Of a stretch of DNA of 64,000 nucleotides, positions 45,801-48,800 are shown piece by piece (the first letter of the stretch is position 1; each line of letters opens with the position of its first letter). Position numbers: made by a program. Source of the DNA: Escherichia coli (lineage in GTDB: Bacteria; Pseudomonadota; Gammaproteobacteria; Enterobacterales; Enterobacteriaceae); the NCBI RefSeq assembly GCF_017348835.2, contig NZ_CP071375.1, one strand, 5' to 3'.

Positions 45801-48800
45801 ACAATCAGCGCACTTCCCGTTACAGGTCAGAGCATTGACGGTAAATGGCGGAGCCACTCAGGGAACCATTCAGGCAGTGATTAGCATCACTTATACCTAC
45901 AGCTGAACCCGAAGAGATAATTGTAATGAAACGAGTTATTACCCTGTTTGCTGTACTGCTGATGGGCTGGTCGGTAAATGCCTGGTCATTCGCCTGTAAA
46001 ACCGCTAATGGTACCGCTATCCCTATTGGCGGTGGCAGCGCTAATGTTTATGTAAACCTTGCGCCCGCCGTGAATGTGGGGCAAAACCTGGTTGTGGATC
46101 TTTCGACGCAAATCTTTTGCCATAACGATTATCCGGAAACCATTACAGACTATGTCACACTGCAACGAGGCTCGGCTTATGGCGGCGTGTTATCTAATTT
46201 TTCCGGGACCGTAAAATATAGTGGCAGTAGCTATCCATTTCCGACCACCAGCGAAACGCCGCGCGTTGTTTATAATTCGAGAACGGATAAGCCGTGGCCG
46301 GTGGCGCTTTATTTGACGCCTGTGAGCAGTGCGGGCGGGGTGGCGATTAAAGCTGGCTCATTAATTGCCGTGCTTATTTTGCGACAGACCAACAACTATA
46401 ACAGCGATGATTTCCAGTTTGTGTGGAATATTTACGCCAATAATGATGTGGTGGTGCCTACTGGCGGCTGCGATGTTTCTGCTCGTGATGTCACCGTTAC
46501 TCTGCCGGACTACCCTGGTTCAGTGCCAATTCCTCTTACCGTTTATTGTGCGAAAAGCCAAAACCTGGGGTATTACCTCTCCGGCACAACCGCAGATGCG
46601 GGCAACTCGATTTTCACCAATACCGCGTCGTTTTCACCAGCGCAGGGCGTCGGCGTACAGTTGACGCGCAACGGTACGATTATTCCAGCGAATAACACGG
46701 TATCGTTAGGAGCAGTAGGGACTTCGGCGGTAAGTCTGGGATTAACGGCAAATTACGCTCGTACCGGAGGGCAGGTGACTGCAGGGAATGTGCAATCGAT
46801 TATTGGCGTGACTTTTGTTTATCAATAAAAAAATTACAGCGCATTGCTAATGCTGGTACCTGAGGCGCTACGCTATCAGACCTACAAAACCTGCACGTTA
46901 GCCCTTTGTAGGCCAGATAAGACGCGTCAGCGTCGCATCTGGCATAAACAAAGCGCACTTTGCTGGTCTGTTCCCCTCACCCTAACCCTCTCCCCGGAGG
47001 GGCGAGGGGACTGGCCGGGCACATTTTTAGACTTTGTCATCAGTCAGAGCCTGCCAATGGCAGGATCTGGTGTTCTTTTACGCTACCACGCTAATAATCA
47101 GCACAATAATAAGCCCAACCACGGAGTTGACCAGCTCCAGCTGACCCCAGGTTTTCAACGTGTCTTTTACCGACAGGTCAAAGTAACCTTTGAACAGCCA
47201 GAATGAGGCATCATTAATGTGGGTGAGGGTGTTGGAACCCGCAGCCGTCGCCAGCACCAGCAGCGCCGGATTCACGCCAACCAGCTGACCAGTTGCTGGA
47301 TCAAGGATTGCAGCACTGATAATCCCGGCGGCGGTCATCGCCGAAACGACACCCTGACCCGTCGCCAGACGAATTAGCACAGTGATCAGCCATGCCATGA
47401 TGTAGGGCGAGATATTGCCGTGGGACATCAACATGCCGATGGTGTCGCCAATGCCGGTGTCGATGATGGTCTGCTTCAGCACGCCACCCGCACCGATGAT
47501 CAGAATCACCATTGCAATACTCTTCACCGCGCTTTCAAAAGCGTTCATCACCCACTGCATGTCATGACCACGTGCGGTGCCAAAGAGTACGAATGCAACC
47601 ACCATCGCAATAAACATTGCAATCGGCGAGGAACCGATAAAGTTAACCACTTCCCAGGCAGGGGTATCTTTTACCAGCCAGATATTGGCGATGGTGGTAG
47701 AGATCATAATGATCGCCGGGATCAGCGGCACCAGAATCGAAACGCCGAAAGAGGGCAGATTATTCATATCTACCGGTTGATCTGCTTTCAGGAATGATGG
47801 CGTTGGGCGCTCAAGATTGCCGAGGAACTTCGGCAGGATCAGACCTGCGCAGATTACACTTGGGATCGTCACCAGTACGCCATAGATATAAACCATCCCC
47901 ATATCCGCGCCATAAGCATTCACCAGCGCCACCGGACCCGGCTGCGGTGGGAACAGTGAATGTGCGGTAGTGGCAGCTGCTACTGCCGGGATCGCCAGTT
48001 TCAGGAACGGAATTTTAGCTTCGGCGGCAATAACAATAACCAGCGGCGCTAACATGATAAAGGCCACTTCATAGAACATCGCCAGACCAAAAATCAGGCC
48101 GATGATAATCACCGACAGCTGTACATAGCGCAGACCGAGACGCGCCAGCAGCGTATGCGCTATCTGGTGAGCCGCGCCGGAGTCGACCATCAATTTACCG
48201 ATGACCGCACCGAACACCACGATGATAGCCAGTTCCCCCAGCGTGTTGCCGAAGCCCGCTTTCATAGTGTGCAGCAGCGACATCAAATCCATGCCCGCCA
48301 GCATCCCGACGGACAGCGCCGCCACCAACAAAGCCACCATTGAATTGATTTTGAACTTCAAATTCAGTACCAGCATCAGACCAATGCCGAATACCACCCA
48401 GAGAATGTTAAGCACATGCATAACGTTTTACCTTACCTGGTTGAACCGTTGTTATTTTGGGCGACATGTTATGTAAATTGGTCAACCATTGTTGCGATGA
48501 ATGTCACATCCTCTGATCAATAACCATCGATTACCCTTTGCTGCAATTTGCAGCAACAACCATGAGAGTGAAATTCTTGTGATTTGGTTAACCAATTTCA
48601 GAATTCGGGTTGACATGTCTTACCAAAAGGTAGAACTTATACGCCATCTCATCCGATGCAACGCCACGGCTGCGGTCTGGTTGTTCATCCGGATACCTAA
48701 ACAACTCCAGGGTTCCGCGTCTCTTTGCTGTGGAACCCACTATGTGAAAGAGGAAAAATCATGGAACAGACCTGGCGCTGGTACGGCCCAAACGATCCGG

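What the first reader, a model, noticed from the sequence alone, without database searches (positions are those of the whole stretch)
46900..47012. REP element plus GC-rich box C-like repeat after fimH
A REP palindrome is followed by ttcccctcaccctaaccctctccccggaggggcgaggggactgg, a GC-rich inverted-repeat motif I recall as a dispersed intergenic repeat in E. coli. It probably acts as an mRNA stabiliser or terminator between the convergent fimH and gntP.
Basis: partly seen in the sequence, partly recalled or inferred. Interest (0 to 1): 0.15.

Follow-up and report, generated by a model that had tools for sequence, protein, structure and literature searches.

The report
Known REP and BoxC repeats after fimH
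The stretch between the E. coli genes fimH and gntP holds one copy each of two long-known dispersed repeats, a REP hairpin and a BoxC element that was catalogued at this exact site in 2015, so it is ordinary; about half of E. coli strains lack the BoxC copy.

Summary
fimH (45926-46828, +) and gntP (47078-48421, -) converge on a 249-nt spacer. It holds a canonical REP (GTAG plus imperfect palindrome, 46908-46943) and the quoted GC-rich motif (46971-47014).

The motif's core (46973-47008, - strand) is base-for-base TMECO no. 23 of Holder et al. 2015 (PMC4666352). That is the fimH-gntP copy of the element known as BoxC, PIT or TMECO. It is dispersed, with a median of 18 places per genome in 5,425 of 5,426 complete E. 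coli genomes.

Aligned copies show a BoxC unit of about 58 nt (46971-47028). The finding's end coordinate cuts off about 16 nt.

The functional guess is only partly supported:
- REPs are documented 3'-end stabilisers and partial Rho-dependent terminators.
- PIT/BoxC elements are reported to have no promoter or terminator activity.
- The BoxC hairpin lacks an adjacent U-tract.
- The 81-nt BoxC-bearing segment is found in only about 52% of genomes.
- A third hairpin with a U-tract (47044-47079, +), kept in all six alleles aligned, is the better terminator candidate.

Side observation: in a Pseudomonas genome, BoxC-like motifs pair up in a ~160-bp composite repeat, and E. coli BoxC aligns with one end of it.

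Verdict: already known, low interest.

The parts
45926..46828 (+). fimH coding sequence (context; its stop codon ends at 46828)
   Evidence: A 300-aa ORF. It aligns to annotated fimH b4320 of MG1655 and to fimH of four other genomes.
46859..46885 (+). Degenerate REP-like arm in inverted orientation (iREP-like, CTAC at 46882-46885). It is allele-specific: present in the window and in strain ET245, and different in K-12 and O157:H7.
   Evidence: Inverted repeat I2, TATCAGACCTACAAA / TTTGTAGGCCAGATA, 87% complementary to the GTAG-proximal arm of the main REP. It folds only weakly, -10.7 kcal/mol, z = -0.8. The allele difference is visible in A1. The whole 249-nt spacer is matched at >=80% coverage in only 232 of 5,426 genomes. 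Typing it as z2-like rests on my memory of the consensus, and that recalled consensus found no match within 3 mismatches.
46908..46943 (+). REP element (z-type form): conserved GTAG tetranucleotide, then an imperfect palindrome with an internal 2-nt mismatch. The extended hairpin spans 46906-46951.
   Evidence: arms 46909-46925 / 46930-46946. (-23.1 / -23.7 kcal/mol, z = -5.6 / -5.1). (five more copies in the window). (at least 40 places per genome in 5,425 genomes). (sub-threshold hit to the REP325-derived naRNA4 model, 30.7 bits, E = 0.005). Defining features are taken from PMC3333891. The element is invariant in all six alleles aligned.
46971..47028 (-). BoxC element, full ~58-nt family unit. 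The G-rich strand is the - strand, which is the gntP sense strand.
   Evidence: Alignment of the window copy with 10 K-12 'type A mm' copies. Conservation ends sharply after GAGGGGAA and fades about 18 nt beyond the C-block, around ...AAAnnGTGCnCGGnCnGT. The literature gives a size of 56 bp and 32 copies (PMC2267715 table).
46973..47008 (-). Triplex-motif core (PIT / TMECO no. 23). On the - strand: block 1 CCCTCGCCCC (47008-46999), loop TCC, block 2 GGGGAGAGGG (46995-46986), loop TTA, block 3 GGGTGAGGGG (46982-46973). This is type 'A mm', with one G.A mismatch between blocks 1 and 2.
   Evidence: The reverse complement of the window sequence is identical to entry 23 of Table 1 in PMC4666352, at MG1655 4,549,883-4,549,848, antisense. 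Those coordinates fall between fimH and gntP of NC_000913.3. The predicted RNA and DNA folds pair block 1 with block 3.
46964..47044 (.). 81-nt segment (BoxC plus short flanks) that is an insertion/deletion polymorphism in the species. It is replaced by 12 nt, CGACAATCCGAA, in the O157:H7 F6667, ET245 and strain 1283 alleles.
   Evidence: Alignment A1: spacer lengths are 242-249 nt versus 172-180 nt. The junction-spanning query 46931-46995 is covered at >=80% in 2,836 of 5,426 genomes. No target-site duplication is visible.
47044..47079 (+). Third hairpin (stem 47044-47070, loop AAU) followed by UGUUCUUUU. It is the best candidate intrinsic terminator for the fim operon and overlaps the gntP stop codon (47078-47080).
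   Evidence: Inverted repeat I3. It folds at -16.1 kcal/mol, z = -3.0. It is present in all six alleles. The consensus scan flags it as terminator-like in the O157:H7 allele, with 9 pairs, 7 of them GC, and tail TGGTGTTCTT. It is not flagged in the window allele, which has a G.A mismatch in the stem, nor in K-12, which has a T>C change in the tail.
47078..48421 (-). gntP coding sequence (context)
   Evidence: A 447-aa ORF. It aligns to annotated gntP b4321.

Best explanation
The segment is a pile-up of two unrelated, long-known families of dispersed intergenic repeats in the permissive gap between two convergent genes.

(1) REP. This is a single z-type REP with GTAG and an imperfect palindrome. 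When transcribed as part of the fim or the gntP 3' UTR it forms a hairpin of about -23 kcal/mol. By inference from the family, it most likely acts as a barrier to 3'-to-5' exonucleases and possibly as a weak, partly Rho-dependent attenuator. It would then set and stabilise RNA 3' ends rather than act as an intrinsic terminator.

(2) BoxC. This is the fimH-gntP copy of BoxC, also called the PIT element or TMECO no. 23. It is a unit of about 58 nt. In the published in vitro work, the G-rich strand (here the gntP sense strand) folds as a purine-motif intrastrand triplex when single-stranded. At this locus it is most likely non-regulatory, dispensable repeat DNA. It sits on an 81-nt indel carried by about half of E. 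coli genomes. Its main consequence is local sequence instability, not termination.

Termination of fim transcription is more plausibly done by the separate conserved hairpin with a U-tract at 47044-47079.

Shown: the identity of both repeats, their copy numbers, the indel polymorphism and the predicted structures. Inferred: every functional role at this locus.
For: Identity:
- The core is an exact match to TMECO no. 23 at the same genomic site.
- The ~58-nt family unit is shared with 10 K-12 copies.
- BoxC-like sequence has a median of 18 places per genome in 5,425 of 5,426 genomes.
- The REP has GTAG, an imperfect palindrome and an internal mismatch. It has at least 40 places per genome and five more copies in the window.

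Dispensability of BoxC:
- The short allele lacks the 81-nt segment.
- The junction is present in 2,836 of 5,426 genomes.
- All four combinations of the left-hand variant with BoxC present or absent exist among the six alleles. This fits the published excess variability at TMECO loci.

No terminator anatomy or activity for BoxC:
- No terminator-like site is called in the REP/BoxC segment (the only site in the scan is inside gntP, 47369-47353 on the - strand), and U5 starts 6 nt after the extended stem.
- Published tests found no promoter or terminator activity.

REP roles: Rho-dependent transcripts end at protective stem-loops, which include REPs. REP325 acts as both stabiliser and partial terminator, and REPs between convergent genes correlate with higher expression of both genes.

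Alternative terminator: the hairpin with a U-tract is conserved in all alleles and is flagged in the O157:H7 allele.
Against: - No RNA 3'-end data for fimH or gntP could be found, so no functional statement is verified at this locus.
- The negative terminator and promoter result for PIT elements is known to me only through the summary in PMC4666352. It was obtained on other copies and contexts.
- The BoxC hairpin on the fim sense strand is strong in absolute terms (-32.5 kcal/mol) and has a U5 run nearby.
- Six of the 10 single 'A mm' copies examined in K-12 lie between convergent genes. A context-dependent 3'-end role is therefore not excluded.
- Triplex formation was not detected in vivo.
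- The third hairpin is only a borderline consensus terminator in the window allele and in K-12.
Confidence: 0.75

Rival explanations
1. One reading: the BoxC hairpin, together with the REP, is itself a transcription terminator or mRNA-stabilising hairpin serving fimH and/or gntP.
For: The GC-rich hairpin folds at -32.5 kcal/mol on the fim sense strand, with U5 six nt after the extended stem, and at -27.9 kcal/mol on the gntP sense strand. Six of the 10 single K-12 'A mm' copies examined sit between convergent genes. The A/T-rich patch about 12-15 nt from the C-block is partly conserved in the family.
Against: Published tests of PIT elements found no terminator or promoter activity and no effect on RNA polymerase. 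There is no U-tract within 0-2 nt of the stem, and no terminator-like site is called in the REP/BoxC segment. The fold z-scores are unremarkable, -2.1 and -0.7. The element is absent from about 48% of genomes at this locus, while a separate hairpin with a U-tract is always kept. Other copies lie inside operons (pstA-pstB, yihS-yihR) without separating them.
Confidence: 0.12
2. BoxC is kept because its G-rich strand forms an intrastrand DNA triplex during replication or transcription. The triplex stalls polymerases and promotes local mutation and rearrangement, and this variation is adaptive (the proposal of Holder et al.). Here that would put it next to the fimH adhesin gene.
For: The sequence is identical to a catalogued TMECO. 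Type 'A mm' oligonucleotides form a stable triplex in vitro, with a Tm of about 74 C and support from CD and NMR. TMECO loci are more variable than control loci. This locus shows an 81-nt indel plus a second variable patch, and all four haplotype combinations occur.
Against: No protection consistent with a triplex was seen in vivo, and the duplex forms when the complementary strand is present. Variability may simply reflect gain and loss of a repeat and of its REP neighbours, not instability induced by it. An adaptive value is untested, and no link to fimH variation was examined here.
Confidence: 0.25
3. BoxC is a solo end (half-element) of a MITE-like mobile repeat family shared among Proteobacteria. 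On this view the copy after fimH is an insertion relic with no host function.
For: In Pseudomonas sp. dw_612, BoxC-like motifs occur as 34 inverted pairs, and the most common outer distance is 158-160 nt. The aligned 150-170-nt pairs form a conserved composite repeat found in both orientations. The E. coli unit, including about 18 nt of its C-block-side flank, aligns with one end of that repeat. The element is presence/absence polymorphic at this locus.
Against: The E. coli copy has no second inverted repeat and no target-site duplication, and the indel is a replacement (81 nt versus 12 nt), not a clean insertion. No transposase partner was found; the one long pair examined is a tandem array. 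In Pseudomonas the motif is subterminal and no duplication was seen at its flanks. Holder et al. found no association with mobile elements. The polarity of the indel was not determined.
Confidence: 0.3
4. The GC-rich motif is a chance palindrome with no family membership.
For: None beyond the fact that its folding energy is not exceptional for its base composition.
Against: It is an exact match to a catalogued element. There is a median of 18 related places per genome. None are expected by chance in the window.
Confidence: 0.01

Closest known systems
BoxC (Bachellier et al.), also called the PIT element (Hoyne & Maher 2000, 2002) and TMECO (Holder et al. 2015, PMC4666352)
   Same: The 36-nt core is identical to TMECO no. 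23, which was catalogued at this very locus in MG1655. It is type 'A mm', with a TTA second loop and one mismatched triplet. It is intergenic and multi-copy, and it shares the ~56-58-nt unit with other K-12 copies.
   Different: Nothing of substance differs. The window allele differs from K-12 only outside the core (GACTGGCC versus GACTGTCC). What this study adds is that the copy sits on an 81-nt indel found in about 52% of 5,426 complete genomes.
REP / BIME elements of E. coli (y, z1 and z2 REPs; substrates of TnpA-REP/RAYT)
   Same: It has GTAG 5' of a ~32-nt imperfect palindrome with an internal mismatch, it is extragenic and high in copy number, and five sibling copies lie in the window.
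   Different: It is effectively a single REP. Its would-be partner (46859-46885) is degenerate and allele-specific, so this is not a canonical BIME-1 or BIME-2. It lies 80 nt after the fimH stop (GTAG at 46908), so it is not of the class I recall as acting on translation when within about 15 nt of a stop codon (from memory, not checked).
Rho-independent (intrinsic) terminator
   Same: GC-rich stem-loops lie in the 3' region of two convergent genes.
   Different: Neither the REP nor BoxC has a U-tract directly after the stem. Only the third hairpin at 47044-47079 has this anatomy, and only borderline in this allele.
MITE-like composite repeats of Pseudomonas (for example the P. fluorescens families of Silby et al. 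2009, PMC2718517)
   Same: The BoxC-like motif with its inner flank forms the inverted ends of a ~160-bp repeat in Pseudomonas sp. dw_612.
   Different: The E. coli element is a single end without a partner. Whether the Pseudomonas unit is one of the published families (for example R6, 177 bp with 34-bp inverted repeats) was not checked.

Membership tests
BoxC / PIT / TMECO | Three consecutive 9-10-nt blocks (one C-rich, two G-rich) separated by loops of about 3 nt, able to form a purine-motif intrastrand triplex | tested here: met
   The - strand reads CCCTCGCCCC-TCC-GGGGAGAGGG-TTA-GGGTGAGGGG, identical to Table 1 entry 23 of PMC4666352.
BoxC / PIT / TMECO | Intergenic location | tested here: met
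   It lies between the fimH stop (46828) and the gntP stop (47078).
BoxC / PIT / TMECO | Dispersed, multi-copy in E. coli (23-32 copies reported for K-12) | tested here: met
   Median of 18 and maximum of 35 places per genome in 5,425 of 5,426 genomes.
BoxC / PIT / TMECO | Family unit of about 56 bp, extending beyond the triplex core | tested here: met
   The alignment with 10 K-12 copies shows a shared flank of about 18 nt on the C-block side and a sharp end after GAGGGGAA.
BoxC / PIT / TMECO | Actual triplex formation by the G-rich strand | not testable with these tools
   It was shown in vitro for type 'A mm' oligonucleotides and not detected in vivo. This copy differs from the most common K-12 'A mm' copies in Table 1 of PMC4666352 only in loop 1 (TCC, against TTT or TCT).
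REP (repetitive extragenic palindrome) | Imperfect palindrome of 30-40 nt | tested here: met
   Arms 46909-46925 and 46930-46946. The hairpin folds at -23 kcal/mol, z = -5.6.
REP (repetitive extragenic palindrome) | Conserved GTAG tetranucleotide 5' of the foot of the palindrome | tested here: met
   GTAG at 46908-46911. The criterion comes from PMC3333891.
REP (repetitive extragenic palindrome) | Non-complementary bases within the stem | tested here: met
   The predicted hairpin has a symmetric 2-nt internal mismatch.
REP (repetitive extragenic palindrome) | High-copy extragenic distribution | tested here: met
Six copies lie in the window.
REP (repetitive extragenic palindrome) | Organisation as a BIME (REP plus inverted iREP separated by a linker) | tested here: inconclusive
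   A degenerate inverted arm with CTAC lies at 46859-46885 in this allele only. It folds weakly and did not match my recalled z2 consensus within 3 mismatches.
Intrinsic terminator | GC-rich stem-loop followed immediately (0-2 nt) by a U-tract | tested here: not met
   For the REP and BoxC, the scan calls no terminator-like site in this segment, and U5 begins 6 nt after the extended BoxC stem. The separate hairpin at 47044-47079 meets the criterion in the O157:H7 allele. It does not strictly meet it in the window or in K-12.
[quoted passage not shown] | Two terminal inverted repeats flanked by a target-site duplication | tested here: not met
   The E. coli copy is a single end, and no duplication is visible at the indel junctions. 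The Pseudomonas relatives have paired motifs, but no duplication was seen there either.
[quoted passage not shown] | Presence/absence polymorphism between strains | tested here: met
   The junction is present in 2,836 of 5,426 genomes, and short alleles were sequenced and aligned.

The most novel reading that the evidence does not exclude
E. coli BoxC, including this copy, may be the orphan end of a MITE-like mobile repeat family shared across Proteobacteria. In Pseudomonas sp. dw_612 that family exists as complete ~160-bp units with two inverted BoxC-like motifs. The three-block, triplex-prone structure would then be a recognition structure for single-strand transposition, as REP hairpins are for TnpA-REP. 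It would not be a host regulatory or 'instability' device. The fimH-gntP indel would be a recent gain or loss of such an end.
Probability: 0.25. Interest if true: 0.4.

Novelty: already known. Interest (0 to 1): 0.08.

Why it matters
It matters little for this locus. Both repeats were described in the 1980s-1990s, and this very BoxC copy is listed in a 2015 catalogue.

The practical point concerns annotation. The REP may shape fimH and gntP 3' ends. BoxC should not be annotated as a terminator, and the likelier fim terminator lies outside the flagged coordinates.

Two small additions could interest people working on bacterial repeats:
- The BoxC copy next to the medically important fimH adhesin gene is carried by only about half of sequenced E. 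coli.
- BoxC aligns with one end of a composite inverted-repeat element in Pseudomonas. This hints at a mobile origin for a repeat whose spread has never been explained.

Tried and rejected
- Rfam, both strands at E <= 10. There is no family for BoxC. The hit over 46969-47022 to the eukaryotic Antizyme frameshift element (19 bits, E = 0.66) is spurious. The naRNA4 hits are sub-threshold and only reflect REP similarity.
- RefSeq annotation of MG1655. It carries no repeat features at this site, so it could not confirm the names.
- Published 3'-end maps. There is no fimH entry; the only gntP entry (4551233, + strand, antisense within gntP) is not in the spacer. There are no entries for adk, tusA, tldD, hemB or pstA next to other BoxC copies in the held supplements of PMC7815308. 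PMC12207403 had no occurrences. PMC6061677 and PMC9023263 have no supplement held. The terminator question could therefore not be settled with data.
- Counting the short allele by BLAST. The count was confounded because the tool joins the two flanks across the insertion. I used the junction-spanning query instead.
- The >=80% coverage figure (4,566 genomes). I rejected it as an estimate of locus occupancy because other BoxC copies may approach that coverage.
- A z2 REP consensus recalled from memory. It found no match within 3 mismatches in the window, so the upstream arm is called only 'REP-like'.
- The genome-contig scan. It did not reach Enterobacteriaceae.
- A search for an autonomous, transposase-bearing version between distant BoxC-like pairs in Pseudomonas locus L062. 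It found only a tandem array of the short unit.
- The HusR paper that matched 'boxC' was irrelevant.
- ORFs overlapping the spacer (for example 46844-47206, +) were treated as mechanical. They span repeats and the antisense of gntP.
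Full report
**What is there.** The window matches E. 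coli; the 249-nt fimH-gntP spacer is 100% identical to strain G3/10. A 300-aa ORF on the + strand ends at 46828, and a 447-aa ORF on the - strand ends at 47078. Alignment to annotated MG1655 and four other genomes identifies them as fimH and gntP, which converge. The spacer (46829-47077) contains four structured pieces:
- a weak, allele-specific REP-like arm at 46859-46885;
- a canonical REP at 46908-46943;
- a further hairpin at 47044-47070 followed by UGUUCUUUU.

**Check of the observation.** The quoted string is present exactly. A 38-nt core occurs once in the window, against 0 expected, and its arms are 91% complementary. The REP has the features that define E. coli REPs in PMC3333891:
- GTAG 5' of the foot (46908-46911);
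- an imperfect palindrome of about 32 nt with an internal 2-nt mismatch;
- a strong fold on both strands, -23.1 and -23.7 kcal/mol, z = -5.6 and -5.1.

Five more copies of the same REP form lie in the window. Rfam gives only a sub-threshold hit to the REP325-derived naRNA4 model.

**Identity of the GC-rich motif.** The - strand of 46973-47008 reads CCCTCGCCCCTCCGGGGAGAGGGTTAGGGTGAGGGG. This is identical to entry 23 of Table 1 in Holder et al. 2015 (PMC4666352), listed as type 'A mm' at MG1655 4,549,883-4,549,848. Those coordinates lie between fimH (ends 4,549,710) and gntP (starts 4,549,953). That paper states that the motif is the element first described as BoxC and later rediscovered as the 'potential intrastrand triplex' (PIT) element.

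The suggested check, counting copies, gives a median of 18 and a maximum of 35 places per genome in 5,425 of 5,426 complete genomes. The literature reports 23 TMECOs, or 32 BoxC copies of 56 bp, in K-12.

I aligned the window copy with 10 single 'A mm' copies fetched from MG1655. The shared unit is about 58 nt. It ends sharply after GAGGGGAA and extends about 18 nt beyond the C-block. In window coordinates this is 46971-47028, so the finding's end (47012) truncates it.

**Structure.** The element has three blocks (C-rich, G-rich, G-rich). Block 1 pairs with block 2 with one G.A mismatch, or with block 3 with one G.T wobble; the predicted folds choose block 3. The energies are large in absolute terms (-32.5 kcal/mol on the fim sense strand, -27.9 on the gntP sense strand). 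They are not unusual for the composition (z = -2.1 and -0.7). Published CD and NMR data show a stable triplex for the isolated G-rich strand, with a Tm of about 74 C for type 'A mm'. The duplex forms when the complement is present, and there was no protection in vivo.

**Function: what the evidence allows.**

- *REP.* Family-level literature supports the stabiliser and attenuator roles. [quoted passage not shown] A 2026 preprint shows that REP325 acts both as a partly Rho-dependent terminator and as a stabiliser, and that REPs between convergent genes correlate with higher expression of both genes. Nothing was measured at this locus.

- *BoxC.* The terminator idea fails on several counts:
  - PIT elements are reported to lack promoter and terminator activity and to have no effect on RNA polymerase.
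  - No U-tract follows the stem directly, and the scan calls no terminator-like site in the REP/BoxC segment.
  - Other copies sit inside operons, at pstA-pstB and yihS-yihR.
  - The element is dispensable here.

- *The indel.* Six aligned alleles show that an 81-nt segment (46964-47044) carrying BoxC is replaced by 12 nt in O157:H7 F6667, ET245 and strain 1283. The REP and the third hairpin are kept in all six. A junction-spanning query finds the filled allele in 2,836 of 5,426 genomes, about 52%. All four combinations of the left-hand variant with BoxC present or absent occur among the six alleles. That implies recombination or recurrent indels, in line with the excess variability reported at TMECO loci.

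- *The third hairpin.* This hairpin with its U-tract (47044-47079, +) overlaps the gntP stop codon. It is called terminator-like in the O157:H7 allele and is borderline in the window and K-12 alleles. It is the better candidate for the fim terminator, and it lies outside the flagged coordinates.

- *Missing data.* I found no public 3'-end data for fimH or for the fimH-gntP spacer, so all functional statements remain inference.

**Related sequences elsewhere.** It had already found the motif in:
- Pseudomonas sp. dw_612 (64 stretches);
- Methylomagnum, Solimonas, Sideroxyarcus, Gallionellaceae and Rhodoferax;
- an alphaproteobacterial MAG, Desulfobulbaceae and another deltaproteobacterial MAG;
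- one Bacteroidaceae MAG and an unclassified MAG with 28 copies.

In the Pseudomonas genome I found 34 inverted pairs, and the most common outer distance is 158-160 nt. The aligned pairs of 150-170 nt form a conserved composite repeat seen in both orientations. The E. coli BoxC unit, flank included, aligns with one end of that repeat. The inverted repeat continues imperfectly for another 10-20 nt outside the motif, and I saw no target duplication. The one widely spaced pair I checked was a tandem array, not a transposase-bearing element. MITE-like families are described in P. fluorescens, but I did not establish identity with any of them. This suggests, and does not prove, that BoxC is a solo end of a MITE-like element.

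**Verdict.** The functional reading is plausible for the REP and not supported for BoxC. Everything central is already in the literature, including this exact copy. Interest is low.

Noticed in passing
L056-L119 (Pseudomonas sp. dw_612), e.g. L056:11481-11640, L066:9424-9582, L076:1218-1377: BoxC-like triplex motifs occur as inverted pairs, 34 in all. The most common outer distance is 158-160 nt, with other size classes near 190 and 270 nt. The aligned 150-170-nt pairs form a conserved composite repeat found in both orientations. The E. coli ~58-nt BoxC unit aligns with one end of it. No target-site duplication and no transposase partner was found.
   Followed up: partly
window 47044-47079 (+): A hairpin followed by UGUUCUUUU overlaps the gntP stop codon and is conserved in all six fimH-gntP alleles. 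It is called terminator-like in the O157:H7 allele only. It is probably the real fim operon terminator, and it lies outside the finding's coordinates.
   Followed up: partly
window 46829-46885: The first ~53 nt after fimH exist in two very different versions. The window and strain ET245 carry a degenerate inverted REP arm (CCTGAGGCGCTACGCTATCAGACCTAC); K-12, O157:H7 and others do not. The whole 249-nt spacer is matched at >=80% coverage in only 232 of 5,426 genomes. All four combinations with BoxC present or absent occur among the six alleles.
   Followed up: partly
window 8948-9273 (-) and 13410-13445 (+): Four copies of the same z-type REP form lie at a period of about 96 nt (a BIME-like cluster), and one further single copy lies nearby.
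   Followed up: no
L006-L014 and L001 (MG1655 BoxC sites): Of the 10 single 'A mm' BoxC copies examined, six lie between convergent genes: tauD/hemB, aaeR/tldD, frlR/yhfS, zntA/tusA, yjdP/phnP and fimH/gntP. At least two besides this one have a REP within about 70 nt (frlR-yhfS, pstA-pstB). Repeats seem to accumulate in the same permissive gaps.
   Followed up: no
L062:2767-3679: A tandem array of the Pseudomonas BoxC-containing unit produces repeated spurious small ORFs (...LPSPSPQRGEGTDRG...), which are translations of the motif. Gene callers could mistake these for proteins.
   Followed up: no
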